Source: an uncultured Bdellovibrionales bacterium (GTDB lineage Bacteria; Patescibacteriota; Minisyncoccia; Moranbacterales; UBA1568). From it: a stretch of 64,000 nucleotides of DNA. The stretch covers positions 22,792-86,791 of the forward strand of contig CAYLJX010000001.1 in NCBI GenBank assembly GCA_964384235.1. The letters run 5' to 3'. Position 1 is the stretch's first letter, and the number at the start of each line of letters is the position of its first letter. The translations under genes and the position numbers were made by a program. This document shows positions 11,349-60,464 of this stretch, one piece after another. The notes beneath the pieces were generated by a model, which saw only the letters and a program-made list of their open reading frames with translations, did not search any database and was not told the origin of the DNA.

Positions 11349-11584
11349 ATTATTGTTGCTAAGGAATTATTAAATTTGAGAATCCAGTTCTGAGAACACA
11401 AAAGGCCCTACGAACCGGTGGCAATCCTTTCGGACTGTCTCGGCGCTCTTTCGAACGTCGACCTTAGCAACAAGTACCGGCCATAGGGCCGTTTCTGTTG
11501 CTAAGGGTTTTATTGCGCCATGCCCGTATTGCTACGAGTTTAGGCATTATTGTACCTCAATTATAGCTTTTTAAGGGACGAAAA

Positions 11585-16473: not shown

Positions 16474-16502
16474 TTTACTTACACTGAAAAGCATTGTATA
16501 AT
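16474..16502 (+). promoter_or_regulatory. putative sigma70-type promoter for the island plus-strand operon
   Basis: TTTACT, a 17-nt spacer, then TATAAT (16497-16502) 14 nt upstream of the ATG at 16516. Small inverted repeats (CTGGTC-aaaaa-GACCAG at 16447-16463) lie just upstream. Confidence 0.35.
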
Positions 16503-16515
16503 AGCCGGAAAGCGT

Positions 16516-17307: not shown

Positions 17308-20300
17308 ATAAAATCAACGTATATAAAAAAATTGATGAAGTAGTGAAAGCTGGTCCTTCTCATACCAAAAGGGAGGAACTTTTACTTTTGACAAGCGAAG
17401 AGGATTCTCGAAACTATTTTTATTCTGGAGCAGGTGAAATGTGGCTTTCATGGCTTTGGGAAAATCATTTTCTTGATCCGATAAAGGAAAAAGTCAACGA
17501 TCAAAACATTCCCACTAACCAACTTCCAGAGTTATTTTATCTTTCCCGAATTAGCGAAAAAGCTCCGGAAGTAGTTGCAAAGATTCTATTAGACATACCC
17601 GTCTCATCAAACTCTAATCAGATGGTAGTTGCTCAGTTCTTCAGAATAATAAGTGAGATGCCCGCAAAAGAACTACCTCCGCTGATTCAGAAGATGTCTC
17701 AGGAGAACTGGCTCCCTGTCATTAGTAGATATGGTCATATCGGATTTGACTTCGAGCGGATGTTTAGAGTTTTGGTAGAAGTAAGCGATTGGGAAAGCGT
17801 CCTTTCTCTTAGCCAGATGCTGTTGTTGGTAAAGGAGAAGCCGTCCAATGATGACTCATCATCGTGGGCTGACAACCCATTCTACTGTACCGATCTTGAA
17901 TACTCCGGCGTGTTTAATATTTTGTGCAACATTGAAGATGCTCACCTTGAACAATCTCTCGCTCTAGTGTCAGAAACCATGGGCAGCGTAGTGCACTATA
18001 ACGCAGACAAAAGGGAGCCGAGAGAGGCCTTCAAGGTTGGTGACGGATTTGCGTTTTATGAGATAGACTTTTTCACTCTCGAAACGAGTCAAAAAAGACA
18101 CACTTCTTATCGGGACGACGTTCGAAACTTAGCGGCAACTCTCAAGAAACTCTGTCAAAGAGTCTTTGAAAAAAATAAGGAAAACGAAAAAGAAGTTCGC
18201 CGGATATATAGTCAATACATTGAAACATTACCTGATAGTCAGGCAATGTGGCGGTTTCGTCTTTTCGTTCGAAGTCTGAATTCGGAGATTTTTCATCAAG
18301 AAATCAAAGACGCTATTTTCAGAATTGGAAAAGTGGCACGACCACATGACCTCACATCGCCAGAATACAAACGGCTTCTTCAACAGAACCTCAAGATCTT
18401 TTCTGAAAAAGAGAAACAAGATTACAAAAGTACTATTTTCAAGCTCATAGAAGATGAAAATGAGGGTCTTTCAAAATATGATGCTTACAGTATCTGCTCA
18501 TCGATTTTTGAGTGGCTTACTGACGAAGAAAAAGGGATTGCTGCAAACTATTCGAAACATGAGTTGGATCCTACCTATGTTCCGGAAACCACGATCCACT
18601 CACCGAAAGGTGGGACGGTAAGGAGTCTCTCTCCTATCTCTGATAATGAACTTCAAAAATCAGTAAGCGAAATAGCAAAGAGTCTTCGTAATGAGTGGGC
18701 TCCACAAAACCTGGGAAGAAAGGATGATTATAAAGAGGATTCTATAGACGAGTACGGCCCAGAAGGACTTGCTAACAAAATCAAAGAGAAGATTTCCGAA
18801 AGGCTGCAAGAATTTATTGATCATGCCCAAGAGTTCTTTGAGCCAGGTACTCTTGATGAGCATTACACCTATACATTTATAGGCGGTGTTCGTGATGCGT
18901 TTGGTGCTGGGAAGTTTGAATCTACCACCAATTGGGATGGGTTAATGAAGCTTTTTTCATTGATTGTTAACCAAGGTCGTTTACAAAATGGGAAATGGAG
19001 ACGAGAGGAATTCCTTGAATCTCTTGCTGGATGGACGGCTACTTATAGCGTTCTCGCAGAACTTATCAACGAGCTTGTTAAAGTCCGTAAAGACAAGACT
19101 CGGTCTTTTGACTTCACGAATAACAGAGATCAAGTTCTGGAAGTGATAAGGTATCTTCTTGCTCATCCAGATCCTACTGTAGAAAGTGAGGTATGCACCC
19201 CTAAAATTAAAAATGCCTCTGATACAGAGGATGAGGTGAAGTATGATTGCTCTGATCCTTTTACTCATGCCATTAACTCAGTGCGAGGTAAGGCATTTGA
19301 GGCTCTGATTAACTTTATGTACCGTGATGGCGAGAAACTCTCGAAAGAAAATACTGTATTAATCAGTGACGACGTAAAGAAGGTATACGAGGAACTTCTG
19401 GAACATGAAGATACGCGCGCAGTGAGATTTCTTTTTGGCCACTACCTTCCATCTGTGTATTTTCGTGATAAAGCATGGGCCGACAAGGTTGTTATCCCAA
19501 GGCTTTTTGACTTTGAAAACAACAAGGATCTATCCTTGGCTTCCTGGGAAGGATACCTGGCAAATAATGTATATCGCGATCTCTTCCTAAGGCTTGAGTT
19601 GTATTACCTCAAGAATATTCAATTGAAGCGAGAGGAATACACTCCTCGTGAGTATTTCAAGAATCTCGATGAGGGTATGGCGACCCATATAGCAATAGCC
19701 TTTATGCATTTTCCTGAAATTGCCCTTGAGTCAAATGTATTCAAGACCTTTTGGAAAGAGAAGAATGTAAAACGACAAAGCGAATTCATTTCATTTGTCG
19801 GTCGTTATGCTATATCTCGTGATAATGCAGCAGAGTGGATAAAGACAAATGGAGTGGATAAAGACAAGGTTGAGGCCTTCTGGGATTGGCTTTTATCGAA
19901 CACTGAAATTGACCAAAAAGTTTTTGAAGCGTTTGGATTCTGGATGGACGCAGAATGGAAAGTTTTTGATCCAAGTTGGCAAGCTGAGTATGCAAGAAGA
20001 ACTCTTGAAAAAACTCGGGGTGTTATCGATTGGGACTATAATCTCCAACAGTCACTCCCTGTATTTGTCAAAGTAGCTCCACAAGACACTCTGGCGATAC
20101 TGAGGCTATACTTACTTGATTATCTTTCTCAGAAAATGGAGCATCAGGGTTACTTCCACTTGGATGACGAGATTACCGAGGTATTTGAAGCGCTCTATAA
20201 TAATCCTGATACAAAACAAGGTGTCTATGATCTTATAGACGCTTTACTTCCTCGTGGGAATGGCGCTTTTTGGAAATTAAAAGACGTACTGAAAGATTAA
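17304..20300 (+). CDS. large hypothetical protein, 998 aa, predominantly alpha-helical (island operon gene 2)
   Basis: Long uninterrupted ORF with consistent AT-rich codon usage. No catalytic motif recognisable. Helical-repeat-like composition. Confidence 0.55.
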   Translation: MNKINVYKKIDEVVKAGPSHTKREELLLLTSEEDSRNYFYSGAGEMWLSWLWENHFLDPIKEKVNDQNIPTNQLPELFYLSRISEKAPEVVAKILLDIPVSSNSNQMVVAQFFRIISEMPAKELPPLIQKMSQENWLPVISRYGHIGFDFERMFRVLVEVSDWESVLSLSQMLLLVKEKPSNDDSSSWADNPFYCTDLEYSGVFNILCNIEDAHLEQSLALVSETMGSVVHYNADKREPREAFKVGDGFAFYEIDFFTLETSQKRHTSYRDDVRNLAATLKKLCQRVFEKNKENEKEVRRIYSQYIETLPDSQAMWRFRLFVRSLNSEIFHQEIKDAIFRIGKVARPHDLTSPEYKRLLQQNLKIFSEKEKQDYKSTIFKLIEDENEGLSKYDAYSICSSIFEWLTDEEKGIAANYSKHELDPTYVPETTIHSPKGGTVRSLSPISDNELQKSVSEIAKSLRNEWAPQNLGRKDDYKEDSIDEYGPEGLANKIKEKISERLQEFIDHAQEFFEPGTLDEHYTYTFIGGVRDAFGAGKFESTTNWDGLMKLFSLIVNQGRLQNGKWRREEFLESLAGWTATYSVLAELINELVKVRKDKTRSFDFTNNRDQVLEVIRYLLAHPDPTVESEVCTPKIKNASDTEDEVKYDCSDPFTHAINSVRGKAFEALINFMYRDGEKLSKENTVLISDDVKKVYEELLEHEDTRAVRFLFGHYLPSVYFRDKAWADKVVIPRLFDFENNKDLSLASWEGYLANNVYRDLFLRLELYYLKNIQLKREEYTPREYFKNLDEGMATHIAIAFMHFPEIALESNVFKTFWKEKNVKRQSEFISFVGRYAISRDNAAEWIKTNGVDKDKVEAFWDWLLSNTEIDQKVFEAFGFWMDAEWKVFDPSWQAEYARRTLEKTRGVIDWDYNLQQSLPVFVKVAPQDTLAILRLYLLDYLSQKMEHQGYFHLDDEITEVFEALYNNPDTKQGVYDLIDALLPRGNGAFWKLKDVLKD

Positions 20301-20306
20301 ATTCGT

Positions 20307-21350
20307 ATGGGATTTGAAAGCACAGAAGAGTATAAGAAAATCTTTAAATTTAGCAATAATAAGAGTTTACGACTTCTTACACGAGAAAGTAGTACTATTG
20401 AATTTAAAGTTTCTTTCAACTGGAGGTCGAAGGATGAGTACGCGAAGAGTGTTGCTGCTTTTGCAAATAAACAAGGAGGTTTCCTCATCTTTGGGGTCAA
20501 GGATAAACCAAGGGAGTTAGTTGGCCTTCAATCAGATAAATTCGAGGAGATAGATGAGGCAGTAATTTCTGAATATTTAAATAGCTTGTTTTCTCCTGAG
20601 ATAGAGTTTGAAAAGTTTGTAGTGAAGGTTCGAGATAAGGATGTAGGGGTAATAAAAGTCCATTCTGTAGGTCAGAAGCCTGTCGTAGCAACAAAGAATG
20701 ATGGTTCTGTAAGAGAGGGTGAAATCTATTATCGGTACAATGCAAAAAAGGAGAAAATAAAGTTTCCTGAACTTAGAGAGTTACTGGACAAGATTCGAGA
20801 AGAAGAGCGCAAGGAATGGATGTCTCTGTTTTCAAGAATCTCTAGCATAGGGCCAGAGAATGCAGCGCTTCTAGATATGGCCAGTGGCAGAATAGAGGGG
20901 AAGACAGGTACATTGGTTATAGATAGAAAATTAATTTCTAAACTGAAATTTATTCAGGAAGGAAGGTTTCACGAGACTGGATCTCCTACGCTTAAACTGG
21001 TTGGCGAAGTAAGGCCTATCACAGTAGTGAAATCTAGAAGATCCTCAGCTGGTGGTAAGTTAAAGATTACCAACGATCCATCCGCTCCAGAAGTTAGAGT
21101 TAAAGAAGAGGACTTGTTAAATGAATATTCCCTAGATTACAAAGCTCTTACAAAAGAGCTTGTAAAAAGGTACCAGGATTTCAAACCAAATAAAAAATAC
21201 CACGAGGTCCGTAAATTTCTAATGAAGAAGGAAGGGAACTCATTTACTCGGACACTAAATCCAAAAAATGCTAAGAGTGTAAAGCAGGACTTTTATAGCC
21301 CTAGGATAATTAAGGCGTTCGGTAAGTTTTACAAAAAGAAAACGAGTTAG
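20307..21350 (+). CDS. AlbA_2 (Schlafen-like putative DNA/RNA-binding) domain protein
   Basis: N-terminal region IEFKVSFNWRS...AKSVAAFANKQGGFLIFGVKDKPRELVGL matches the PF04326 AlbA_2 signature (EFK...AFAN..GG.lxxGV.D). Confidence 0.6.
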   Translation: MGFESTEEYKKIFKFSNNKSLRLLTRESSTIEFKVSFNWRSKDEYAKSVAAFANKQGGFLIFGVKDKPRELVGLQSDKFEEIDEAVISEYLNSLFSPEIEFEKFVVKVRDKDVGVIKVHSVGQKPVVATKNDGSVREGEIYYRYNAKKEKIKFPELRELLDKIREEERKEWMSLFSRISSIGPENAALLDMASGRIEGKTGTLVIDRKLISKLKFIQEGRFHETGSPTLKLVGEVRPITVVKSRRSSAGGKLKITNDPSAPEVRVKEEDLLNEYSLDYKALTKELVKRYQDFKPNKKYHEVRKFLMKKEGNSFTRTLNPKNAKSVKQDFYSPRIIKAFGKFYKKKTS

Positions 21351-21353
21351 TTT

Positions 21354-22424
21354 GTGATTTCTTCATATAAATATCTCAAAGACTATACATACTACTCTGA
21401 CCTCTATGATCGCTTCACCATAGAGGAGTGCCAGCGTTGGGAAGACAAGGAATATCCTGTACCACCTGAAGAATCCGACAAGGAAGCAAAACTGAGAAAA
21501 GTAAAAGAAGAATTCCTTCAAAAAGTGGTTACTCCTCTCGGACTCTACTTTCTCACTGCTGACCGCGCTGCAAAGAAACCTGAAACCATTCAGGAATGGA
21601 TGAGGCGAGACCAAGAAAAGGACGAGCGAGTCACCAACGCTGAAGAACCGAGAAGTATCCGCTGTCTGGGGTGCAGTGCGTTTTTGACAAACTGCATCTC
21701 GCGAGATCTCATGGATAATCACCAAGGACGAGAAGAGGTCCTTTTTATGTTTGAATGTGGCCAGTGTCACAAACGCCGAGCCTTTTGGGAAGATGGCAGA
21801 GAGTGGGAATACAAACCGAAGTGTATAAAGTGCCAGTCAGAAGTGGCGTCGGAAACGACTAAAAAAGATGCTCTCCTTACCACTCGATACACCTGCTCCC
21901 ATTGTGGTCATGTGGAGATAGATACTATGGATCTCAGTAAGAAAGAAGAGGAAAAGATTGATCCTAATTTTGAGGCTAACCGGAAGAAATACTGTATCTC
22001 AGAGCTCGAAGGACAGCGGATTATCCGTGAATCGGAAGAGATGAAGGAGTTTGTTGATAAATGGAAAGAGAGGGATAAGAACAAAGACCTTTATGATGCC
22101 ATAGGAAAGATACAGAAGCTCACCATTGTTGAGCTCCAAGCTCTCCTTGACCCACTTCTTGAAAAAGCTAGCTATACCAAACTCGAGTTCGAGAAGCCCG
22201 TTCTGGAGAAAGATGTTATCCTCGAATTCGGGCTCCAAGATGCCAAATCTGGCCGAGGAGACTATGATAGCCGTCATGATCTTCAAAAGCTCTTCAAAGA
22301 GGCTCTAAGCCCTACAAATTGGCGCCTGATGAGCGATGGAGTCACTTATCGTCTTGGATTCCTCCAAGGGCGCCTAAAGGGCGTAGAAGGCGAGGAAAAG
22401 TTCAAAGAGCTCCTCGAATCCTAA
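21354..22424 (+). CDS. zinc-ribbon protein, hypothetical
   Basis: Four CxxC pairs (CLGC, CGQC, CIKC, CSHC) forming two predicted zinc ribbons. Otherwise charged and helical. Confidence 0.5.
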   Translation: MISSYKYLKDYTYYSDLYDRFTIEECQRWEDKEYPVPPEESDKEAKLRKVKEEFLQKVVTPLGLYFLTADRAAKKPETIQEWMRRDQEKDERVTNAEEPRSIRCLGCSAFLTNCISRDLMDNHQGREEVLFMFECGQCHKRRAFWEDGREWEYKPKCIKCQSEVASETTKKDALLTTRYTCSHCGHVEIDTMDLSKKEEEKIDPNFEANRKKYCISELEGQRIIRESEEMKEFVDKWKERDKNKDLYDAIGKIQKLTIVELQALLDPLLEKASYTKLEFEKPVLEKDVILEFGLQDAKSGRGDYDSRHDLQKLFKEALSPTNWRLMSDGVTYRLGFLQGRLKGVEGEEKFKELLES

Positions 22425-22497
22425 CAAAAGAAAAAAGGTCTTGGTAAATAAGGTTTTACAGGAGACAATACAACTAGTTCTTCTGGGAGTCTTATCG

Positions 22498-22526
22498 TGG
22501 ACAAAACGTGTTTTTTGATGTATAAT
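22498..22526 (+). promoter_or_regulatory. putative internal promoter
   Basis: TGGACA, a 17-nt spacer, then TATAAT (22521-22526) in the 142-nt gap before the kinase gene. Confidence 0.4.
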
Positions 22527-22566
22527 TCACTCAATTTTTAACTCCGATAAAGGTAATCAAAAGAAG

Positions 22567-23178
22567 ATGTCATTCGAAAGCTACAAGCAAGATTCTCGGG
22601 ATATGCATCTCAACCCTGCCGAAGGTAGGGAGTATGCGGAGGCGCTAGAATCATTATTGGAAAAATACAAGGATAAGAGAGTGCTTGTACTTGCGCCACC
22701 AAGTGTTGGGAAGAGTACCATTCTTCAGCATATTAAGGAGGGCGTTGATTTGGATGTGGTGTTTGATGATATGCCAGAAGAATTTAAAAGACATGTGCTG
22801 CACCACGAACACCCGTTTATGTTTATTGATGGTGATAAGAAAACGGTAAAATACACTGAAAAAGAATTTGATCCAATGAGTGATGAGCATCAGGACCACC
22901 TAAAAAAGACAACGGAATCATTGACAGAATATACTCAGAACAAGGTAAATATTGAAGCAGGGCATCCCGCTTTCGGGAGTACACTCATAGATGCGGATGT
23001 CGTTATTTATCTTAAGATTTCTGACGAGGAGCTCAAGAAAAGAATTGAGGCACGGAATACCAAGACTTATCGACTTGCTCAGCTCGAAAGGGTAAAAGCG
23101 ATAAAGAAAAACCTTGAAGCTGATTTGGAGAGATTGAGATCGGAAGGAAAGATTGTCGAGGAGCTGGCAATCTCATAA
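22567..23178 (+). CDS. P-loop NTPase / nucleotide or polynucleotide kinase-like protein
   Basis: Walker A LAPPSVGKST and Walker B-like VVFDD. 203 aa. Confidence 0.6.
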   Translation: MSFESYKQDSRDMHLNPAEGREYAEALESLLEKYKDKRVLVLAPPSVGKSTILQHIKEGVDLDVVFDDMPEEFKRHVLHHEHPFMFIDGDKKTVKYTEKEFDPMSDEHQDHLKKTTESLTEYTQNKVNIEAGHPAFGSTLIDADVVIYLKISDEELKKRIEARNTKTYRLAQLERVKAIKKNLEADLERLRSEGKIVEELAIS

Positions 23179-23201
23179 ATTACCTAAAACAACGTAAACA
23201 T

Positions 23202-23744
23202 ATGAAAATGCAGAAGAAGATAGTCTTTTTGGATGGCGACGGGACGCTCTGGTATCCCAAAGCGACGAAGCGTACGCAAAAACCTCACTGGATTTACCAT
23301 GATCCAGCAACGAAAGATAACTACCTTGAACATCTGGAGTTGACACCTCGGACCAAGGAAACCCTCGAAGCTCTACGAGAAAAGGGAGTCTACCTCGTAG
23401 TGCTTTCAGCCAACCCTTACGCTGAAGAAATAGCTATCAAAGAGATTAAAGAACGACTCGAACACTTTGGACTCAGTAGTTTGTTCTATGCACACAGATC
23501 TTCGAGTGGAGATGATCCAAATGGTAAAGCAACCATTATGGTGGAAATTCTCTCTTCTCTAGGTCTCCGTAAAGAGGACGCGCTGATGGTTGGAGATAGC
23601 TACTTCTATGACTATCTTGCAGCCAAGAATGTTGGTATAGATGCTCTGTTTATTGAAAATGGCGTTTCAAAAATGCCAGAGGAAATCCCTCAGGATTTGC
23701 AGTCAATCAAAGAGGTCCACGAATTGCTTGATATATTGGCCTGA
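23202..23744 (+). CDS. HAD-superfamily phosphatase
   Basis: Motif I FLDGDGTLW (DxDxT), motif II S (VVLSANP), motif III K, and motif IV GDSYFYD. Confidence 0.7.
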   Translation: MKMQKKIVFLDGDGTLWYPKATKRTQKPHWIYHDPATKDNYLEHLELTPRTKETLEALREKGVYLVVLSANPYAEEIAIKEIKERLEHFGLSSLFYAHRSSSGDDPNGKATIMVEILSSLGLRKEDALMVGDSYFYDYLAAKNVGIDALFIENGVSKMPEEIPQDLQSIKEVHELLDILA

Positions 23745-23751
23745 GGTTTCT

Positions 23752-26700
23752 ATGAATGCAGATACCGCAAGAGAAAAGCTCTTAGAATTTAACCAGAAGG
23801 GCGATGCCAGTATACTGGTTGGCTTGCTGGGTATTGCTGAGCATGATGTCGAAAGTGCCATACGTTTTATTAATGCACATGCTGACAAGAATCAGCTAGA
23901 GACATTAGTATTTCAACCACTGAAGGTCAATGAAAAGCATCTCGTATTTGTTGATCCATCGCTTGAGATCAAGGCGGTTAGTACGGATATTGTTCATCTG
24001 AAAAAGACGCTGGAGCAGATTAAGATGTATGATAATGAGAATCCTGTAAGTGTAACTTCCAGTGTTGACTTGAGATGCTTACTCCTCTCGTTAGCAAAGT
24101 CAGAACTCAAATCTTATGATGTTTTTACGAATTTCAATACCGATAACTTAGGTAAAGCCACTCTAAGAAAGTGCCTCGAAGATGAAAAGAACTGGATTAA
24201 AGAAAGAGTTCAAATTCAAAAAGAGCTCATAAATCGCAGCTATAGAAGCGCGGTAGCCTTGGCACGAAAAGTAGCGCGATCCAAAAAGCTCGGGAGAGGT
24301 ATTTACTGCGTGAGAGGGTCTGTGGCTTCAGGAAAGTCTTCATTTATTGAAGGTATCCTTCGCCAGAATATACGGGTATTTGAGAACTCTGGTGGAGTTT
24401 TAAATACTGACGCTCTGAAAAGACAGCTCCTAGTCAATACCCTAAATGTGACTGGTCACGCGCTTTCCGGGTATCTCTTTCACGAGGAAGCTTCAGTCAT
24501 CAGTGAAAAAGTCCTCAAGCTAATTAAAAAATCAACCTCTGGCTACGTAGTTGATAGGAGAATGCAAGATGCTACTGACCTTGATGAATTATTAGTAGAT
24601 GCTGCCGAGAGAAAATTGCCAGTTACCATCTTTGACCTGAAAGTAGATTTCATAACATCAGCTCTGCGTGTTCTTGAGAGAACAGGCGTATATCCAAGCG
24701 ATCCTACGCCAGACTTTTTAGCCTTGTACAAAAGCTATAGAACCATAGAGGAAGGTCGCCTATCCTTCTTAGAAAAATCACTTCGTGCAAAGTCCGTAAA
24801 AAATTACTCTGTTGTTCGAGTGAATAGTAATGGGCATCCGGTCATTGTTAATCTCAAGAAGGACTATAGGGTTAATAAGAAGAGTACGGAACAGGAGTCG
24901 GAAGTGCGATATATAGCAAGTGCTGATAGTTTGCGCGATACAGTGCTCTCTAATGGAAAAACACTCCAGCATACCCTTGATGAGCACTCATACAAGAACT
25001 ACAACATGCGCTATTCTCGGCAAGAGTATTTGGATAGTCTTTTGCATAATATCGAAAAGACTAGCAGAACATTTGCTGGTGAGTTAAATGTCTCTGCATC
25101 AAAAGATAAGTCTCGGCTAGTCAATTTGTTCATGCCGAAGAACGATCTGGCTGATACAACAAGGAATAATATCACTCAAGCATTTGATTTTGTATATGAG
25201 AATAAAAACCTGCCTCTGATATCACCGCAGGTACTCCGAGATTTTATTGATCAAATAGCAAGGATTGTTAATCAAGGGATCGTAAGCGACGAGAATCTGA
25301 TTCTTCGGAGTGGGAGTAATTCCCATAAGTATTTTTATGTAGATACTCGATACATAGAAAGGTTCTATCAATCATTCGTGAATCAGTTTTTCGAAAAGCT
25401 CAATGATCCGGTGATTACATCAGTGGATCTTGCTGCATGGGTTGAATGGAATATCGACTTCTGCGGACATATTTTTGTCGACGGCTGTGGCAGAATAGCC
25501 AAGGTTGTAAGCGCCTGGTTGTTAATGAGAGATAATAGCGACTTACCAGATTATAGTATTGGTCAGGATGGGTTTGAAACAGTCCGAGAATCCTATCGAA
25601 GAAGGTTTGCTCTGAAAGCTAGAGTTCGTCTTCAAATACCAGCTGATACAAAGAGTTATCGTAGCTTTTTGGCCTACTATAGGAGATTGTTCAACCCTAA
25701 GGAAACCTATAAAGTTCTTGCTTCAGGAGGTTTAATATACAATTCATCAGGGCAATTTTTGATACTCCAGACCAGTAAAGGTAAAGATTATGGAAAATGG
25801 GTCGTACCAGGTGGTAAACTTGGCGTTCAAGAGACTCCTGTCGCAGCTTTTGTTCGTGAGGTTTTCGAAGAAACGGGACTGAAGATTGATCACATCATGC
25901 TGATGGGAGTACGAGACTATACGGCAAAAAGTGGTAACCACTATCATTTTTACGACTATACCTCCACTGTTGTAGAAGAGAAAGAAATCAGGATCAATGA
26001 GGAATCACTTTCCTTCAAGTGGATTACGAAGGACCAGATACCAAATTATAAATTTACAGACTCTATTGCTAACTTTGTCAATAAGTACTTTGCATTGGAA
26101 CGCTTGGATATCTATAGCAAGGTAGTTACGGTTCCTGATAAGAACTTTGATTCCCCATACCTAGATGATCACACGATGACTGTTTCATTGGAAAAGTATG
26201 TTCAATCCAAACTACCAGTAGAGCTGATAACGACTAAAGTTAAGACAATAGATAGGGTAGAAGTCCACGGTATATATCCAGATCTTAAGGTTTTAAATGA
26301 TCTTAACCTTGGATTTAATATCCTGGAGGTAATTCACTTCAGTAAACAAAAAAGTGACAACAGCAACAGTTTGAGGCCGATGTTCTTATTAGCTGAAAAA
26401 GACTCTAAGAAACTCCTTGTTTGCTGTGTAACCCCGGGCCGGGATTTATTGATCCACTACGCTTCTATGTTGAAGTATTATTTCAGAAACTCATCAACTC
26501 CTGTATTGGCTTATGCTTATCCGTTCGCCGAAAAGAAAATCGATAAATGGACTGGGTTGGATAACAAGATGATTATAAAAAACGATATCGTTATCCTTGG
26601 TTACAGTACTTTCTTTAGGAATCAGTTTGAGAAAGACCCTGATTTTTCCGTACTCAGCACCTATCAGAACAAGTATTACTCTGCTACGAGATTTATTGCT

Positions 26701-27285
26701 AAAAATGGCAAGATAGTAAATTGTCTTGAAGCAAACTATGGACATTGGGGTGACATAAGTGACTTTTTGGCGCAGAAGATATGTCAGTTACATGCATCAG
26801 AAATTCTACACATAGGTAAGGTTGGTACTTTGAAGTCTCCGAGCGAAGTGTATAAGCGAATCTATATACCGAAATCTTTCGTCATAGGAAGAAGGAATGA
26901 GATTATGAGTATTGGCTCCAGAATCAGTAACTCGATGGAGTACATAAAGGAACATTCTTCCTTGGCACACGTTTCAGTATCTACAACAATGGAAGAAACA
27001 TTTGCTCAACGGAAAAACTTATCTCAAAAAAAGGTCGACACTATAGATATTGAATCTTCAAAGATTGCCCGTGCGGTTGCCCTATACAACTTAGCAAATA
27101 AGGCAAAAGTGAAGTTTGGAGCAATACACTTCTCTTCTGATTATTTGAAAAAGCCAGATGAGGTCGGTAATGGTGCAGATTTGGATTTGGCAACCAATAG
27201 AGAGGAATTGGAATACAGAAAGAAAAGTATCCTGATTGAAATTTCGTCTGTTATAAAAAAACATCTTCTAAAGACAAGTTCTTAG
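23752..27285 (+). CDS. 1177-aa multidomain protein: P-loop (zeta-toxin/AAA-like) kinase, Fic/Fido motif, Nudix hydrolase, nucleoside phosphorylase (PNP_UDP_1)-like
   Basis: Start taken at ATG 23752 (MNADTAR); the tracked ORF start at 23641 would overlap the HAD gene. Walker A GSVASGKSS (res 189-197). Fido motif HIFVDGCGR (res 573-581). Nudix box GGKLGVQETPVAAFVREVFEETGL (res 686-709). C-terminal VSVSTTMEETF...DIESSKIARAVALYNLANKAKVKFGAIHFSSDY resembles the DeoD/MTAN active-site region. Confidence 0.75.
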   Translation: MNADTAREKLLEFNQKGDASILVGLLGIAEHDVESAIRFINAHADKNQLETLVFQPLKVNEKHLVFVDPSLEIKAVSTDIVHLKKTLEQIKMYDNENPVSVTSSVDLRCLLLSLAKSELKSYDVFTNFNTDNLGKATLRKCLEDEKNWIKERVQIQKELINRSYRSAVALARKVARSKKLGRGIYCVRGSVASGKSSFIEGILRQNIRVFENSGGVLNTDALKRQLLVNTLNVTGHALSGYLFHEEASVISEKVLKLIKKSTSGYVVDRRMQDATDLDELLVDAAERKLPVTIFDLKVDFITSALRVLERTGVYPSDPTPDFLALYKSYRTIEEGRLSFLEKSLRAKSVKNYSVVRVNSNGHPVIVNLKKDYRVNKKSTEQESEVRYIASADSLRDTVLSNGKTLQHTLDEHSYKNYNMRYSRQEYLDSLLHNIEKTSRTFAGELNVSASKDKSRLVNLFMPKNDLADTTRNNITQAFDFVYENKNLPLISPQVLRDFIDQIARIVNQGIVSDENLILRSGSNSHKYFYVDTRYIERFYQSFVNQFFEKLNDPVITSVDLAAWVEWNIDFCGHIFVDGCGRIAKVVSAWLLMRDNSDLPDYSIGQDGFETVRESYRRRFALKARVRLQIPADTKSYRSFLAYYRRLFNPKETYKVLASGGLIYNSSGQFLILQTSKGKDYGKWVVPGGKLGVQETPVAAFVREVFEETGLKIDHIMLMGVRDYTAKSGNHYHFYDYTSTVVEEKEIRINEESLSFKWITKDQIPNYKFTDSIANFVNKYFALERLDIYSKVVTVPDKNFDSPYLDDHTMTVSLEKYVQSKLPVELITTKVKTIDRVEVHGIYPDLKVLNDLNLGFNILEVIHFSKQKSDNSNSLRPMFLLAEKDSKKLLVCCVTPGRDLLIHYASMLKYYFRNSSTPVLAYAYPFAEKKIDKWTGLDNKMIIKNDIVILGYSTFFRNQFEKDPDFSVLSTYQNKYYSATRFIAKNGKIVNCLEANYGHWGDISDFLAQKICQLHASEILHIGKVGTLKSPSEVYKRIYIPKSFVIGRRNEIMSIGSRISNSMEYIKEHSSLAHVSVSTTMEETFAQRKNLSQKKVDTIDIESSKIARAVALYNLANKAKVKFGAIHFSSDYLKKPDEVGNGADLDLATNREELEYRKKSILIEISSVIKKHLLKTSS

Positions 27286-27308
27286 TGGTTTTCTACGACT
27301 TCTGTATT

Positions 27309-34356: not shown

Positions 34357-34552
34357 ATCCCTCTTCTATCTATAGTATAAGGCATACTCCATTGTATTTT
34401 TTTCCGGCCGCGATGTCAATGCGCAAAGACGAGAAGTTATGAGTCTTGAGACCAGAGGTTACGAAACCGGATTTTCCAGACTCCAGACTCATACGCTCCT
34501 TGCCTAAGATTGACAATGGCGTTGGAGGAGGCGTGAAGTTATGATATAGTAA

Positions 34553-37137: not shown

Positions 37138-38811
37138 ATGGCAGAAACAGACCGAGGGACGGCTTCCGACGGACAGTCGCCAGGCGAGGTGGATGTGACT
37201 GATCGTGCGACCGCACTCAACATCCCTCTTTTGAGCGAGGTTCCCCGCGAACTCGACAAAACCGTTCTCTCGGTCATCCCCGAGGAATCGGCGAGGAAGT
37301 ACCGGATGGTCGCCTTCAAGAAAGAAGGGGAGACGCTTCATGTTGCCATGGTGGATCCCCAGGACTTCGAGGCGCTCAATGTCCTACGGTTCCTGGCTGA
37401 GAAGGAACGTCTAGGTATCGAGGTCTATCTGACGACCGAAAAGGTGTTCTCCGATGTCGCCAAGAATTACACCGGAACGGACCAGGCCCTCAAGGATGCG
37501 ATCCTCTCCCTGAAGAAGGAGGAGAACATCACGCTGGAAATCAAGGAGGAAAAGAAGGCGCAGGGCAAAGACGCGGAGATATTTCAGGACGCACCGATCG
37601 CCAAGTTGGTGGAGGTCATTGTCAAGCATGCCATGGACGGCCGGGCGAGCGATATCCATATCGAGCCGGTGGAGGGGAGTTACCGGGTGCGGTTCCGTAT
37701 CGACGGACTGCTCCGCTCGCAGCTCGTCTTTCCGATAGAGGTCGGCCGGGCGGTCATCTCGCGTATCAAGATCCTCTCCAATCTCAAGATCGATGAGAAG
37801 CGCAAACCTCAGGACGGCCGCTTCCGTTTCGAGGGGGAGGACGAAGCTGTCGACCTGCGCGTCTCCAGTCTGCCGGTGATCGATGGTGAGAAGATCGTGA
37901 TGCGCGTCCTGGACAAGAGTCACAACGTGAGCGATCTGGAGAAGCTCGGACTGTGGGGGAGGAACCGGTCGGTGCTGGAGCGACGGATCCGCGAACCGTT
38001 CGGTATCATCCTCATCACCGGACCGACCGGCTCGGGTAAGTCCACCACGCTTTACGCGTTCCTGCAGATCCTCAACCAGGAAGAGCGCAACATCATCACG
38101 CTCGAGGACCCGGTCGAGTACTATGTCGAGGGTATCAATCAGAGTCAGATCAAGCCGGAGATCGGATATACCTTCGCGAGCGGACTGCGCTCCATCCTGC
38201 GCCAGGACCCCAATGTCATCATGGTCGGTGAGATCCGTGACAGCGAGACGGCGGAGCTTGCCATCCATGCGGCGCTCACCGGACACCTCGTCCTCTCGAC
38301 TTTGCATACCAATGATGCCATCGGCGCGGTGCCGCGTCTCATCGATATGGGGATCGAACCGTTTCTCCTGGCTTCGTCACTGCAGGTGATGGCGGCGCAA
38401 CGTCTGGTACGGCGTATCTGCGACCAGTGCAAGGAGCCTCTGGAACTCTCGTCCGTGCAGCGTTCCCGGCTTCAGGAGTTCTTCAAGAGTATTCCTGAGG
38501 AAGAAGTCCGCGCTTATGATCTCGATCCAAAGCGGGAACTCGTCTTTTACCACGGCAAGGGATGCGACGAGTGTGGCAATACCGGATACAAGGGACGGAT
38601 CGCAGTCTACGAAGTGTTGGAAGTCGATGAGGGAGTGCACGAGATCATCGCCGACAAGAACGGGAACGAAGTGGAACTCCGTAAGGCCGCCGACAATCAG
38701 AAGATGCTTTCCATGAAACAGGATGGCTTGCTCAAGGTGCTCAAAGGTATCACGACGCTCGCGGAAATGGAACGCGTGACGGAAGGGAAGATCCTTGTCG
38801 ATGAGGAGTGA
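37138..38811 (+). CDS. pilB: type IV pilus assembly ATPase PilB (GspE family)
   Basis: GSPII_E N-domain, Walker A GPTGSGKST, Asp box, His box, and a tetracysteine motif (CDQC...CDEC). Confidence 0.9.
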   Translation: MAETDRGTASDGQSPGEVDVTDRATALNIPLLSEVPRELDKTVLSVIPEESARKYRMVAFKKEGETLHVAMVDPQDFEALNVLRFLAEKERLGIEVYLTTEKVFSDVAKNYTGTDQALKDAILSLKKEENITLEIKEEKKAQGKDAEIFQDAPIAKLVEVIVKHAMDGRASDIHIEPVEGSYRVRFRIDGLLRSQLVFPIEVGRAVISRIKILSNLKIDEKRKPQDGRFRFEGEDEAVDLRVSSLPVIDGEKIVMRVLDKSHNVSDLEKLGLWGRNRSVLERRIREPFGIILITGPTGSGKSTTLYAFLQILNQEERNIITLEDPVEYYVEGINQSQIKPEIGYTFASGLRSILRQDPNVIMVGEIRDSETAELAIHAALTGHLVLSTLHTNDAIGAVPRLIDMGIEPFLLASSLQVMAAQRLVRRICDQCKEPLELSSVQRSRLQEFFKSIPEEEVRAYDLDPKRELVFYHGKGCDECGNTGYKGRIAVYEVLEVDEGVHEIIADKNGNEVELRKAADNQKMLSMKQDGLLKVLKGITTLAEMERVTEGKILVDEE

Positions 38812-39001
38812 ATGATGAATGAGGAGATAGGAATAACGAATAAGGAATAGCGAATGATGAAAATAGGAGGAAGAGAATTTTTTTGATATACTTTCAGTAA
38901 AGACAACCCATGAATGAGTGGAGAATTCCGAGGAAGAAACAAGCCTGAGAGAATCCTTGCATCATAATTCATCATTCATATCTCATCATTCATAATTCCA
39001 A
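38810..39001. repeat. inverted pair of heptanucleotide-periodic arrays (GAATNNN x about 10 on the left, ATTCATN x about 6 on the right)
   Basis: Left array GAATGAT GAATGAG GAGATAG GAATAAC GAATAAG GAATAGC GAATGAT GAAAATA... (38810-38879). Right array CATCATA ATTCATC ATTCATA TCTCATC ATTCATA (38960-38994), the reverse complement of the left unit. They are separated by about 80 nt in the pilB-pilT intergenic gap. Confidence 0.6.
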
Positions 39002-39005
39002 ACCG

Positions 39006-40088
39006 ATGGAAGCTCTGCACGCGGAACAACGTCTGAAGAATCTCCTGCTCCTGGTCGGGCAGCAGGGGGCGTCCGATCTCCATCTGGTGGTCGGCCGGTA
39101 TCCGATGCTCCGTATCGACGGCAAACTTCATCCGATCACGCAGGAGCAGGTGCTCACGCCGGCCGATACCAAGGCGCTTTCCGATGTGCTCCTGACCGAT
39201 GAGAAGAAGCAGGAACTCCTCTCCTCCGGTCAGACGGACTTCTCCTACAATTTTGAGGATCGGGTACGCTTCCGTACCAACGTCTTTTTCCAGAAAGGGT
39301 ATGTGAGCGTGACGATGCGTTTCGTCATGGACCGCCTGCGTACTCTCGACGAGCTTAATATCCCCAACTCCCTCTACACCTTCGCGAACTATTCCCAGGG
39401 GCTGGTGCTGGTGACCGGGCCGGTCGGTCACGGCAAGTCGACCACCTTGGCCGCCATCATCGACTACATCAATCACAACCAGGAGAAGCATATCGTTACC
39501 ATCGAGGACCCGATCGAGTTCGTCTACAATCAGGACCGCTGCATCATCAACCAGCGTGAGATCGGCCGTGATGCCAAGAACTTTCCCGACGCGCTCCGCG
39601 CCGTCTTCCGCGAGGACGTGAACGTCGTGCTCCTCGGTGAGCTCCGCGACCTCGAGACCATCAGTACGGCCATGACAGCGGCCGAGACGGGACACCTCAT
39701 CTTCGCGACCTTGCATACCAACGACTCCGCCCAAACCATCGACCGCATCATCGACGTCTTTCCGGCCCATCAGCAGAACCAGGTGCGCTCCCAGCTTGCG
39801 AGCGTCATCCTCGGGGTCATCTCGCAGCGCCTCCTGCCGCAGACCGGCGGAGGCCGCATTCCGGCGACGGAAATCATGTTCAAGAACCATGCGGTGGAAA
39901 ACCTGATCCGCGAGAACAAGGTCCATCAGCTCGACTCCGTCATCGAGACGAGCCTCAAGGATGGTATGATCTCACTGGATCGGGCGCTTGCCGACCTGGT
40001 CCGTCGCGGACTGGTCTCGGTCAATGACGCGTTCACCTTCGCCAAGAATCAGGAGTATCTTCAGATGCTTATCGGTAAAGGTGACTGA
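39006..40088 (+). CDS. pilT: twitching motility ATPase PilT
   Basis: Walker A GPVGHGKST and PilT signature AHLIFATLHTN. 360 aa. Confidence 0.9.
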   Translation: MEALHAEQRLKNLLLLVGQQGASDLHLVVGRYPMLRIDGKLHPITQEQVLTPADTKALSDVLLTDEKKQELLSSGQTDFSYNFEDRVRFRTNVFFQKGYVSVTMRFVMDRLRTLDELNIPNSLYTFANYSQGLVLVTGPVGHGKSTTLAAIIDYINHNQEKHIVTIEDPIEFVYNQDRCIINQREIGRDAKNFPDALRAVFREDVNVVLLGELRDLETISTAMTAAETGHLIFATLHTNDSAQTIDRIIDVFPAHQQNQVRSQLASVILGVISQRLLPQTGGGRIPATEIMFKNHAVENLIRENKVHQLDSVIETSLKDGMISLDRALADLVRRGLVSVNDAFTFAKNQEYLQMLIGKGD

Positions 40089-47703: not shown

Positions 47704-49882
<2,179 letters not shown>

Positions 49883-55086: not shown

Positions 55087-55132
55087 CTTTTCTTTTTATC
55101 GGATTTTTCTACTGCCTACTGCCTAATGTCTA

Positions 55133-55759
55133 TTGACTTTTCACCCTATGTTTTTGTCTGATCACGATATCAAGCGGGCTGTCAAAGATGGATTGATTAC
55201 GATAAAAGGATTCGACGAGACTCGTCTCAATCCGGCGAGCTATGACGTCTGTCTCGGCAACAAGTTCATCATCACCGACCCGCACTCTATTGAGGCCATC
55301 GATCCTTCGAAAAAGGTTTTCCCCAAGACACGGGAAGTGGAGATCGCCGACGGGGAGATGTTCGTCCTTCATCCCGGTGCGATGGTCCTTGGAACGCTCA
55401 AGGACTACGTCGGGTCCGACGAGTACCTTATCCAGATTTCCGGGAAGAGCTCGCTCGCCCGTGTCGGGCTCGTCGTGCACAACACGGCCGGTATCATCAA
55501 TCCCGGACACTATCTCCACATCACCCTCGAACTCGCCAACTTCAACATCGTGCCGATCATCCTGCGTCCCGGGATGAAGATCGCCCAACTCACGTTTTCC
55601 CGGCTCTCCTCTCCGGTGGAGCGCAACTACACGCAGGTCGGCCGCTACAACGGCGACAACTGGAAGAAGAACTTCGCTTCCGAAAAGGAACAAAAGAAGG
55701 AACAGAAAAAGAAGCAGCAAGTAAAAAAGAAGAAGGCTGTCGTGAAAAAGAGGAAGTAG
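55133..55759 (+). CDS. dcd: dCTP deaminase with Lys/Glu-rich C-terminal extension
   Basis: LNPASYDVCLGNKFII...GLVVHNTAGIINPGH core. About 30-aa KKEQKKKQQVKKKK tail. Confidence 0.85.
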   Translation: MTFHPMFLSDHDIKRAVKDGLITIKGFDETRLNPASYDVCLGNKFIITDPHSIEAIDPSKKVFPKTREVEIADGEMFVLHPGAMVLGTLKDYVGSDEYLIQISGKSSLARVGLVVHNTAGIINPGHYLHITLELANFNIVPIILRPGMKIAQLTFSRLSSPVERNYTQVGRYNGDNWKKNFASEKEQKKEQKKKQQVKKKKAVVKKRK

Positions 55760-60358: not shown

Positions 60359-60464
60359 TTCTTGATATTAATCCGTTTCAGTCGACAATAGAGAAGTATA
60401 GTGGGACTCGTATAAAGTATCTAGGAAAAGGACCATTCAAATACTTAATACTCAATACAAGATA

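What the first reader, a model, noticed from the sequence alone, without database searches (positions are those of the whole stretch)
38810..39001. Inverted pair of heptamer-periodic arrays between pilB and pilT
Starting at the pilB stop codon, about 10 consecutive 7-nt units share a GAAT core (GAATGAT GAATGAG GAGATAG GAATAAC GAATAAG GAATAGC GAATGAT ...). After an about 80-nt spacer, 5-6 units of the reverse complement follow (ATTCATC ATTCATA TCTCATC ATTCATA) and end 5 nt before the pilT ATG. The structure resembles a miniature inverted-repeat element, or cyanobacterial STRR/HIP-like heptamer repeats. It could form a very long stem-loop in the pilB-pilT transcript.
Basis: seen in the sequence. 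Interest (0 to 1): 0.6.

Follow-up and report, generated by a model that had tools for sequence, protein, structure and literature searches.

The report
Inverted heptamer-repeat hairpin before pilT
The gap between two pilus motor genes of an uncultured Moranbacteria (CPR) bacterium is filled by two mirror-image runs of 7-base repeats that can zip into a long imperfect RNA hairpin ending just before the pilT start codon. It is one example of a 7-base-repeat habit found throughout this lineage, and it probably tunes pilT expression.

Summary
A GAATNNN array (38810-38866) starts inside the pilB stop codon. Its reverse complement (TCATNNT x5 + TCC, 38962-38999) ends 6 nt before the pilT ATG.

Period 7 is the only periodicity in the window: 9 segments, against 0 for most other lags (2 and 4 at lags 12 and 14) and 0 in shuffles. 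In about 1 Mb of related CPR loci there are 34 arrays, against 0-4 at other lags.

The organism is a Candidatus Moranbacteria. At least three other species carry the same GAAT/ATTC inverted arms between a conserved TGnTATACT promoter-like box and pilT, with TTCATAATTCC-N6-ATG invariant. Other lineages have inverted heptamer arms with different units at the same place.

The arrays are identical in 8 independent records, so the locus is not hypervariable. I found no dispersed copies, Rfam hit, terminator or recombinase, so MITE, HIP and inverton readings are not supported.

Best reading: slippage-born heptanucleotide microsatellites arranged as a mismatch-laddered stem-loop that acts in cis on pilT mRNA. 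In this genome the strong stem forms only in pilB-pilT read-through RNA. Function is inferred, not shown.

This is a new variant of known heptamer-repeat phenomena (Mrazek 2007; TAACTGA repeats, MacGregor 2015). Heptamer arrays also sit in frame inside LigA, MiaA and a Wzy-like gene.

The parts
37138..38811 (+). pilB-like type IV pilus assembly ATPase gene. Its stop codon TGA (38809-38811) overlaps the first repeat unit.
   Evidence: Pfam T2SSE 7.7e-132 plus MshEN. NCBIfam PilB/GspE models score about 550 bits, below the equivalog cut-offs.
38810..38866 (+). Left heptamer array, GAATNNN x 8 in register. A degenerate tail runs to 38879.
   Evidence: Sequence. Lag-7 identity 0.64. TRF rows 38810-38855 and 38831-38855. 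Inverted-repeat arm I1.
38884..38892 (+). Promoter-like extended -10 box TGATATACT, lying between the two arrays.
   Evidence: It aligns with TGTGGTATACT / TGTGTTATACT / TGTGATATACT, which is conserved upstream of pilT in L002-L004, L006, L008, L009, L011-L013, L021, L051 and L064. The strict -35/-10 scan found nothing, so promoter function is inferred from conservation only.
38910..38929 (+). Decayed inner left arm, ATGAATGAGTGGAGAATTCC. It is the positional counterpart of the GAATCAG GAATCAT arm of relatives, downstream of the promoter-like box.
   Evidence: Alignment A1. It pairs only weakly with the right array: per-base P 0.34, fold z = +0.08 and +0.41.
38962..38999 (+). Right heptamer array, TCATNNT x 5 + TCC, the reverse complement of the GAAT units. 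Its 3' part TTCATAATTCC is invariant in four species.
   Evidence: Conservation.
39000..39005 (+). 6-nt spacer (AAACCG) between the array and the start codon. The length is constant in four species but the sequence is not.
   Evidence: the spacers are AAACCG, TTTTTG, TCTCCA and TTTCCC.
39006..40088 (+). pilT (type IV pilus retraction ATPase) gene.
   Evidence: TIGR01420 429.7 bits, cut-off 319.1. 62-90% identical orthologues in the 80 metagenome loci kept.

Best explanation
The feature is a pair of heptanucleotide microsatellite-type arrays in inverted orientation that occupy the pilB-pilT intergenic region of a Candidatus Moranbacteria (CPR/Patescibacteria) genome.

Origin (inferred): in this lineage 7-nt units are preferentially amplified, presumably by replication slippage. 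Complementary arms co-evolve because they form a hairpin.

Action (inferred): in RNA the arms zip into a long imperfect 'ladder' stem, with 4-6 bp helices interrupted by a mismatch every 7 nt. The 3' side of the stem ends 6 nt before the pilT AUG. It replaces the A-rich unstructured leader that array-free relatives have there. The stem therefore acts in cis on pilT mRNA. It would limit or gate ribosome access to a start site that lacks a Shine-Dalgarno sequence, and possibly set mRNA stability.

In relatives both arms lie downstream of the conserved promoter-like box, so the hairpin is the pilT 5' leader. In this genome that inner arm has decayed. The good partner array abuts the pilB stop codon, upstream of the promoter-like box. 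The strong stem therefore forms only in pilB-pilT read-through RNA. There it juxtaposes the pilB stop and the pilT start, so a ribosome terminating on pilB would open the stem base. That would couple pilT translation to pilB translation. Promoter-initiated transcripts would escape most of the structure.
For: Shown:
- Period 7 is specific and far above chance in the window.
- In about 970 kb of non-redundant related loci there are 34 arrays at lag 7 and 0-4 at lags 4-6 and 8-12.
- The arms are complementary: 37 nt at 81%. The read-through fold has z = -2.35, and right-to-left pairing probability is 0.66-0.70 with the AUG mostly unpaired.
- Orthologous pilT leaders in L002, L006 and L021 carry the same GAAT/ATTC arms between TGnTATACT and the ATG, with TTCATAATTCC-N6-ATG invariant.
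- The right arm is 73-88% identical between species whose pilT four-fold sites are only 42-65% identical, and the adjacent spacer matches at only 1-4 of 6 positions.
- Other lineages have inverted heptamer arms with different units at the same place: AAAATGN/CATTTTN in L007, L054 and L057; TAACTGA-like/AAGTTRN in L077 and L086. Their fold z-scores run from -3.4 to -5.1. So complementarity is kept while the sequence turns over.
- Across 40 intergenic heptamer arrays, pairing with the flanks is better than for reversed or unit-permuted versions (Wilcoxon p = 5e-4 and 3e-4). Seven in-ORF arrays show no such effect.
- Arrays sit against the flanking stop or start codons: 10 and 11 of 27 respectively, KS p = 0.003.
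- SD-like tetramers are not enriched upstream of starts in this lineage, whereas A-rich words are.
- The arrays are identical in 8 independent records of this organism, so they are not an assembly artefact.
Against: - No expression, transcription-start or structure-probing data exist. The promoter is inferred from conservation only, and the strict promoter scan found nothing.
- In this very genome the promoter-proximal transcript folds no better than shuffles (z = +0.08 and +0.41). L002 and L021 hairpins are also weak (z = -0.6 and -1.35).
- As a group, pilT upstream regions are not more structured than other intergenic regions of at least 70 nt (p = 0.41).
- Many close relatives lack the element altogether, with 22-60 nt spacers. 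Sister taxa carry non-homologous cassettes. The element is therefore dispensable and turns over.
- Conservation of a repeated unit can be inflated by concerted evolution within arrays.
- Each heptamer keeps an uncompensated mismatch, for example left GAATCAT against right ATAATTC in L006. That fits sequence constraint at least as well as pairing constraint.
- My gene calls for the statistics are crude longest-ORF calls, and the loci are biased towards pilus gene neighbourhoods.
Confidence: 0.45

Rival explanations
1. Neutral by-product. The arrays are mutational debris of a lineage-specific bias towards 7-nt replication slippage. Quasi-palindrome template switching keeps the two arms alike. 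The arrays inflate an originally short spacer, persist because they are harmless, and do nothing for pilT.
For: - Heptamer arrays with many unrelated units occur everywhere in this lineage, including as in-frame insertions in surface loops of LigA and MiaA.
- Many relatives have a 22-60 nt pilB-pilT spacer without arrays, and sister taxa differ completely.
- pilT leaders are not unusually structured as a group.
- The arrays lie at the ends of intergenic regions, as expected if the regions are largely made of them.
- Over-representation of heptanucleotide long SSRs in many bacteria, with a polymerase-slippage explanation, is attributed to Mrazek et al. 2007 in PMC4679880 and PMC4692102.
Against: - The right arm is much better conserved than synonymous sites and than the adjacent spacer across four species. 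The 11-nt 3' end is invariant and the 6-nt distance to the ATG is fixed.
- The same architecture recurs with different units at the same position in separate lineages.
- Arrays at this locus are degenerate and show no copy-number change among strains, so they are not currently slipping.
Confidence: 0.3
2. Sequence-specific binding sites. The repeated units (AUUCAUA in RNA, or GAAT/ATTC in DNA) are read by a trans-acting factor. Candidates are an RNA-binding protein such as S1, Csp or CsrA-like proteins, the ribosome, or a DNA-binding regulator. This is what was proposed for TAACTGA repeats just upstream of start codons in Beggiatoaceae. The inverted copy would be a decoy or a second site rather than a pairing partner.
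For: - The sequence, not only the pairing, is conserved. TTCATAATTCC is invariant, and each unit keeps an uncompensated C-A mismatch in L002 and L006 and in most units of L021.
- The array ends at the position where a ribosome-binding site would lie, in a lineage without SD enrichment.
- The exact 19-mer ATTCATAATTCATAATTCC occurs in 18 IMG/VR contigs (13 distinct), against 2 and 4 for permuted-unit controls. In L134, L137, L139 and L144 it lies 3-20 nt upstream of a co-oriented ORF start.
- MacGregor 2015 (PMC4679880) provides the precedent.
Against: - One genome carries many different units: GAATNNN, TTGTATC, ACTCACT, AAGTCAA, CTACTGC, GAGTCTN. Sister species swap units at the same locus. 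No single sequence-specific reader can account for the class.
- TTCC and ATTC are not enriched upstream of starts in general.
- Only two control patterns were run for the viral enrichment.
Confidence: 0.15
3. Mobile or exchangeable cassette. This would be a MITE-like element or a recombining promoter-plus-leader module, with the inverted arrays as its terminal inverted repeats.
For: - The element has inverted termini and is about 190 bp long.
- Whole-spacer replacement has occurred between sister taxa, with breakpoints at the pilB stop and about 12 nt before the pilT ATG. Meanwhile the AAAATG-type leader is alignable between taxa whose pilB is only 73% identical.
- Similar arrays occur in viral contigs.
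Against: - There is no second copy in the 64-kb window or elsewhere in the 156 related loci.
- No target-site duplication is visible, and no transposase or recombinase lies nearby.
- The 'termini' are degenerate tandem arrays of variable length rather than defined ends.
Confidence: 0.06
4. DNA switch. Either the inverted repeats flank an invertible promoter (an inverton), or the arrays form a phase-variable contingency locus whose copy number changes pilT expression.
For: - In this genome the arms flank the promoter-like box (38884-38892).
- Pilus genes are classic targets of phase variation.
- Tandem repeats are slippage-prone.
Against: - Eight independent records from different samples have the identical 194-nt spacer in the same orientation.
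- Five strains of the L006 lineage (0.1-0.3% SNPs) and three records of L002 have no indel in the arrays.
- The arrays are imperfect.
- In orthologues the promoter-like box lies outside the arms.
- No recombinase gene was found near the cluster.
Confidence: 0.04

Closest known systems
Heptanucleotide long simple sequence repeats of bacteria (Mrazek, Guo & Shah 2007, as summarised in PMC4679880 and PMC4692102), including cyanobacterial STRR and Xanthomonas/Nostoc GGGAATC-type repeats
   Same: Tandem 7-nt units, mostly intergenic, and far more frequent than other unit lengths in the same genome. The unit sequence varies between loci. The presumed origin is polymerase slippage.
   Different: The host is a CPR bacterium, for which I found no report. 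The arrays come as inverted pairs that span an intergenic region from stop codon to start codon. The arrays here are degenerate and evolutionarily conserved at an orthologous site. The units are not STRR or G-quadruplex types.
TAACTGA direct repeats upstream of start codons in marine Beggiatoaceae, cyanobacteria and Bacteroidetes (MacGregor 2015, PMC4679880)
   Same: [quoted passage not shown] A role in translation was proposed for them. The left arms in L077 and L086 even contain TAACTGA units.
   Different: In that system one unit dominates a genome and only one inverted pair was noted. Here the units differ from locus to locus, and inverted partners are statistically enriched. No perfect TAACTGA tandem was found in any fetched locus.
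Start-site-masking leader stem-loops and structure-mediated translational coupling between adjacent genes (general knowledge)
   Same: A stem whose 3' arm lies next to the start codon of the downstream gene and whose 5' arm lies at the end of the upstream gene. A terminating ribosome would open it.
   Different: Here the stem is built from periodic repeats with a regular mismatch every 7 nt, and its loop of about 115 nt contains a promoter-like box. Nothing has been tested experimentally.
Repeat elements inserted in frame in proteins (Rickettsia palindromic elements, from memory; tandem repeats in Borg elements, PMC9879509)
   Same: Short repeats create in-frame insertions in otherwise conserved proteins. 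In this window that applies to LigA, MiaA and a Wzy-like protein.
   Different: This applies to the in-CDS arrays of the window, not to the pilB-pilT element itself. The units are 7 nt, so only multiples of three units are tolerated, which gives 7-residue peptide periods.

Membership tests
Heptanucleotide long SSR (STRR-like tandem repeats in the broad sense) | Head-to-tail copies of a 7-nt unit, longer than chance allows | tested here: met
   There are 8 and 5.4 units. Lag-7 identity is 0.64-0.65. Shuffles give 0 segments.
Heptanucleotide long SSR (STRR-like tandem repeats in the broad sense) | Period 7 predominates over other unit lengths in the genome or lineage | tested here: met
   Window: 9 segments at lag 7 and none at lags 3-6, 8-11, 13 or 15. 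About 970 kb of related loci: 34 against 0-4.
Cyanobacterial STRR proper | Cyanobacterial host and the STRR consensus units (recalled from memory as CCCCAGT, TTGGTCA, CAACAGT) | tested here: not met
   The closest genomes are Candidatus Moranbacteria MAGs. The units here are GAATNNN / TCATNNT.
HIP1 | Over-represented octamer palindrome GCGATCGC | tested here: not met
   1 occurrence in 64 kb against 2.4 expected, and none at the locus.
MITE | Terminal inverted repeats bounding a short non-coding element | tested here: inconclusive
   The arms are inverted, but they are degenerate tandem arrays without defined termini.
MITE | Multiple dispersed copies in the genome | tested here: not met
   GAATNNNGAATNNNGAAT is found only at this locus in the window, and only at the orthologous pilB-pilT spacer in related loci. 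The whole genome was not available.
MITE | Target-site duplication | tested here: not met
   The flanks GGAGT|GAAT... and ...TTCC|AAACCG share no direct repeat.
Start-codon-proximal heptamer arrays (TAACTGA type, MacGregor 2015) | Direct heptamer repeats ending within a few nt of a start codon, in forward orientation | tested here: met
   The right array ends 6 nt before the pilT ATG. 11 of 27 arrays in co-directional spacers lie next to the start.
Start-codon-proximal heptamer arrays (TAACTGA type, MacGregor 2015) | The unit is TAACTGA, a single dominant unit per genome | tested here: not met
   The units differ from locus to locus. No TAACTGA tandem occurs in any locus.
Intrinsic terminator | G+C-rich stem of short loop followed by a U run | tested here: not met
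   The terminator scan found nothing between 38811 and 39006. The stems are A+T-rich with a loop of about 115 nt.
Invertible promoter (inverton) | Inverted repeats flanking a promoter, plus a site-specific recombinase, with both orientations present in populations | tested here: not met
   The arms flank the promoter-like box in this genome only. No recombinase was found. Eight records share one orientation. Read-level data were not available.
Phase-variable contingency SSR | Near-perfect repeats with copy-number polymorphism among close strains | tested here: not met
   The arrays are imperfect (73-83% matches). There are no indels among 8 records of this organism or among the strains of L006 and L002.
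Known structured RNA family (Rfam) | Match to a curated covariance model | tested here: not met
   No hit with E up to 1 in 38500-39300.

The most novel reading that the evidence does not exclude
Moranbacteria, and perhaps CPR bacteria and their phages more widely, may use 'heptad-ladder' hairpins as a general, evolvable post-transcriptional control module. These are stems built from inverted 7-nt repeat arrays that bridge the stop codon of one gene and the start codon of the next.

Because both arms are periodic, the stem can re-register in 7-nt steps, and it can lengthen or shorten by slippage. That would give a tunable rheostat for translation in a lineage that lacks Shine-Dalgarno-guided initiation. 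The same mutational engine also seeds in-frame 7-residue-periodic loops at fixed sites of essential proteins such as MiaA and LigA.
Probability: 0.15. Interest if true: 0.75.

Novelty: new variant of a known kind. Interest (0 to 1): 0.5.

Why it matters
Over-representation of heptamer repeats in bacteria has been known since 2007 but remains unexplained. The only functional proposal, for TAACTGA repeats, is untested.

This locus offers a compact, conserved and comparative test case:
- the same gene pair occurs with the hairpin, without it, and with hairpins built from different units in close relatives;
- the lineage shows no Shine-Dalgarno enrichment upstream of its start codons;
- the element sits in front of the pilus retraction motor, and type IV pili are thought to be central to the episymbiotic lifestyle and DNA uptake of CPR bacteria.

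If the ladder stems do regulate translation, they would be a new class of cis-regulatory RNA whose origin by slippage is visible in the sequence. If they do not, the locus still documents a strong period-7 mutational bias in CPR genomes. That bias reshapes intergenic regions and inserts peptide loops into essential enzymes.

Tried and rejected
- **Rfam.** A scan of the locus (E up to 1) and of the whole window found nothing at the locus.
- **Promoter and terminator scan.** The consensus scan found no -35/-10 promoter and no terminator in the spacer. The promoter-like box rests on conservation only.
- **MITE and HIP.** Both were rejected.
- **Perfect TAACTGA tandems.** None occur in any fetched locus.
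- **First test for inverted partners.** This used ungapped 28-mer matching against unit-permuted nulls. It flagged only 2 of 34 arrays (7 of 63 at the looser threshold). The null was too conservative and the window too short. A duplex-energy test was significant.
- **Are pilT leaders unusually structured?** No. z-scores do not differ from those of 318 other intergenic regions (p = 0.41).
- **Do 5'-UTR arrays generally pair with in-CDS arrays?** This looked likely for miaA in the window. It was not borne out in four other miaA loci.
- **Covariation counting within the GAAT clade.** Not attempted. There are only four distinct sequences and the arms are nearly invariant.
- **A variable spacer between L006 and L059 strains.** It turned out not to be a heptamer array.
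- **Mrazek 2007.** The paper could not be read directly. Its content is cited through two papers that summarise it.
Full report
**1. The observation**

The sequence is as described, with small corrections.
- From the pilB stop codon (TGA, 38809-38811), eight 7-nt units run in register: GAATGAT GAATGAG GAGATAG GAATAAC GAATAAG GAATAGC GAATGAT GAAAATA (38810-38865). Two degenerate units follow.
- After a spacer comes the reverse-complement array TCATAAT TCATCAT TCATATC TCATCAT TCATAAT TCC (38962-38999).
- Then come AAACCG and the pilT ATG at 39006. The gap is 6 nt, not 5.

The supporting numbers:
- Lag-7 self-identity is 0.64 and 0.65, against 0.14-0.45 at lags that are not multiples of 7.
- Tandem Repeats Finder lists both arrays.
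- The longest inverted pair is 37 nt at 81% complementarity.
- In a 35-nt sliding scan of the whole window, lag 7 gives nine segments with at least 24 matches. Lags 3-6, 8-11, 13 and 15 give none, and 50 block shuffles give none.
- The flanking genes are a PilB-like T2SSE ATPase and PilT. They lie in a pilM-pilN-(unknown)-pilB-pilT-pilC-pilin-PilD cluster.

**2. The organism and the reality of the sequence**

The closest genomes are Candidatus Moranbacteria (Moraniibacteriota, CPR/Patescibacteria) MAGs, with PilB at 66-77% identity. Seven independently assembled contigs from different sequencing runs carry the identical PilB and an identical 194-nt spacer. They show no mismatch over 3.5-5.5 kb. 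The arrays are therefore neither an assembly artefact nor variable in copy number or orientation in these populations.

**3. A lineage-wide period-7 habit**

The other period-7 segments in the window fall in three places:
- inside genes, in frame: three in NAD-dependent DNA ligase LigA, two in MiaA and one in a Wzy_C membrane protein;
- upstream of pilM (found as an inverted repeat) and upstream of miaA;
- in a convergent spacer.

The LigA and MiaA arrays coincide with insertions relative to solved homologues: 14-16 extra residues at MiaA 58-73, LigA 122-135 and LigA 567-580, and a smaller one at the third LigA array.

In about 970 kb of non-redundant related loci I counted 34 arrays at lag 7, against 0-4 at lags 4-6 and 8-12. 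Of the 34, 27 are intergenic.

This matches the known but unexplained over-representation of heptanucleotide long SSRs in many bacteria. Mrazek et al. 2007 attributed it to polymerase slippage (as summarised in PMC4679880 and PMC4692102). I found no paper that describes it in CPR bacteria.

**4. What is special about intergenic arrays here**

- Across 40 intergenic arrays, predicted duplex energy with the flanking 160 nt is better than for the reversed or unit-permuted array (Wilcoxon p = 5e-4 and 3e-4). Nine have z below -2. Seven in-ORF arrays show no such effect.
- In co-directional spacers the arrays lie at the two ends. Of 27, 11 are next to the downstream start and 10 are next to the upstream stop (KS p = 0.003). 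This is the arrangement of the pilB-pilT pair.
- The predicted stems are 'ladders': 4-6 bp helices separated by 1-3-nt symmetric mismatches every 7 nt. Examples lie upstream of pilT, pilC and miaA, and in one viral contig.

**5. The pilB-pilT spacer in relatives**

Many Moranbacteria have a short spacer of 22-60 nt. In many of these it holds a conserved TGnTATACT box (an extended -10 look-alike), and most have an A-rich leader.

Three species (L002, L006, L021) have, downstream of that box:
- a GAATCAK-type left arm;
- a non-conserved loop;
- an ATTCATA-type right arm ending in TTCATAATTCC, followed by exactly 6 nt and the ATG.

The right arm is 73-88% identical between species pairs. In the same pairs pilT four-fold sites are 42-65% identical, and the spacer matches at only 1-4 of 6 positions.

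Other lineages carry inverted heptamer arms with other units at the same place:
- AAAATGN/CATTTTN in L007, L054 and L057;
- TAACTGA-like/AAGTTRN in L077 and L086;
- a direct AGTTACT array in L093.

Hairpin z-scores are -4.4 (L006), -4.2 (L007), -3.4 (L054), -5.1 (L077) and -4.2 (L086). L002 (-0.6) and L021 (-1.35) are weak.

Sister taxa can carry non-homologous cassettes:
- L006 and L054 have flanking genes 89-91% identical, and L007 and L012 have 93%. Their spacers are nevertheless unalignable, with breakpoints at the pilB stop and about 12 nt before the ATG.
- The AAAATG leader is alignable between L007 and L054, whose pilB genes are only 73% identical.

The element is therefore dispensable and turns over, yet it is constrained where present.

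**6. This genome in particular**

- The promoter-like box TGATATACT (38884-38892) lies between the two arrays.
- The positional counterpart of the relatives' left arm (38910-38929) has decayed. A transcript starting just downstream of the box folds no better than shuffles (z = +0.08 and +0.41).
- The good partner of the right arm is the array that abuts the pilB stop codon. In read-through RNA the right array pairs with it with per-base probability 0.66-0.70, while the AUG stays mostly unpaired. The whole region folds at -46.3 kcal/mol with z = -2.35.

**7. Mechanism**

I consider it established that these are heptanucleotide microsatellite-type arrays belonging to a lineage-wide class, that they are arranged as inverted arms, and that they are orthologous to a conserved pilT-leader element. 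The rest is inference.

The arms most likely act as an RNA stem next to a start site that lacks a Shine-Dalgarno sequence. SD-like words are not enriched upstream of 788 rough gene calls, whereas A-rich words are. The stem would limit or gate initiation and perhaps affect stability.

In this genome the stem joins the pilB stop to the pilT start. A ribosome terminating on pilB would open the stem base. That predicts coupling of pilT translation to pilB in read-through RNA, with largely unstructured promoter-initiated transcripts.

**8. Rival explanations**

- **Neutral slippage debris.** This fits the patchy distribution, the turnover, the in-CDS arrays and the finding that pilT leaders are not unusually structured as a group. 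It does not explain the conservation of the right arm and its fixed distance to the ATG.
- **Sequence-specific binding sites, as proposed for TAACTGA repeats.** This fits the conserved uncompensated mismatch in each unit. It also fits the recurrence of the exact 19-mer in 13 distinct viral contigs, four times 3-20 nt upstream of an ORF start, against 2 and 4 hits for two controls. It cannot cover the many different units found within one genome.
- **MITE, inverton and contingency locus.** All three fail their defining tests.

**9. Verdict**

The finding is real, and it is more than a curiosity at one locus. I rate it a new variant of a known kind (heptamer SSRs, and heptamer arrays next to start codons), with no functional data. 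Interest is moderate at 0.5.

Caveats:
- gene calls for the statistics are crude;
- the loci are biased towards pilus neighbourhoods;
- fold z-scores are moderate;
- conservation of repeated units is not made of independent sites.

Noticed in passing
window 48102-48131, 48500-48531, 49434-49465 (inside LigA, 47735-49882 +): Three near-perfect heptamer arrays (ACTCACT, AAGGCAG/AAGGCAA, AAGTCAA; 4.3-4.6 units each) lie in frame inside NAD-dependent DNA ligase. Two coincide with 14-residue insertions relative to E. coli LigA (aa 122-135 and 567-580) and the third with a smaller one.
   Followed up: partly
window 59748-59779 and 60150-60181 (inside miaA, 59408-60358 -); 60441-60472 (dnaE-miaA spacer): Two TTGTATC arrays lie 402 nt apart inside miaA and encode TRYKKQDTRYK and TRYKIQDTRYK. 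A third array, in inverted orientation, lies in the upstream spacer and is 80-84% complementary to them. Moranbacteria MiaA orthologues carry 7-residue-periodic inserts at the same two sites with drifting units (GATACAA, GATTCAA, AATACAA, ATTCGAA...). In L153 the dnaE-miaA spacer has an inverted TTTCTAA/ATTAGRN pair that ends 6 nt before the ATG.
   Followed up: partly
window 3210-3250 (inside Wzy_C gene 2621-3892 +): A degenerate heptamer array (TATCGTG / TATCAGG type) lies in frame in an O-antigen-ligase-like membrane protein.
   Followed up: no
window 34438-34493 (upstream of pilM, 34553): A short inverted heptamer pair (GAGTCTT GAGAC ... CAGACTC CAGACTC) forms a hairpin with z = -2.8.
   Followed up: partly
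window 55109-55144: A heptamer array (CTACTGC CTACTGC CTAATGT CTATTGA) lies just after the stop of a CYTH/CyaB-like gene (a weak hit to the class IV adenylate cyclase model, below its cut-off). No inverted partner was found.
   Followed up: no
window 16500-27300: An island of about 40% G+C sits in a 52-60% G+C background. It encodes a Schlafen AlbA_2 protein, a 1214-aa protein with a NUDIX domain, a 998-aa protein with no Pfam hit and an AAA_18 protein. It may be an acquired defence-type island.
   Followed up: no
window 11420-11546 (-): Rfam match to LOOT RNA (RF03000): 63.9 bits against a gathering score of 46.4.
   Followed up: no
L006 5607-5753 vs L054; L007 4482-4661 vs L012: Sister taxa with 89-93% identical flanking genes have completely non-homologous pilB-pilT spacers (GAAT-type against AAAATG-type hairpin cassettes).
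   Followed up: partly
L129-L146 (IMG/VR contigs): The exact 19-mer ATTCATAATTCATAATTCC occurs in 13 distinct viral contigs of 33-60% G+C. It is often part of longer heptamer arrays. In L139 and L134 an inverted GAAT arm lies upstream of it. In four contigs it lies 3-20 nt upstream of an ORF start.
   Followed up: partly
window 55850-56884 (+): This thymidylate synthase is about 55 residues longer over the Pfam domain than the model (319 against 264 positions), which suggests further lineage-specific insertions.
   Followed up: no
L080 and L114 upstream of pilT; MiaA orthologues P0003, P0009, P0014, P0026, P0038, P0040, P0058: G+C-rich palindromic repeat elements occur in spacers. Similar text, translated as ...HPELVEGS..., appears inside MiaA inserts of several Moranbacteria.
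   Followed up: no
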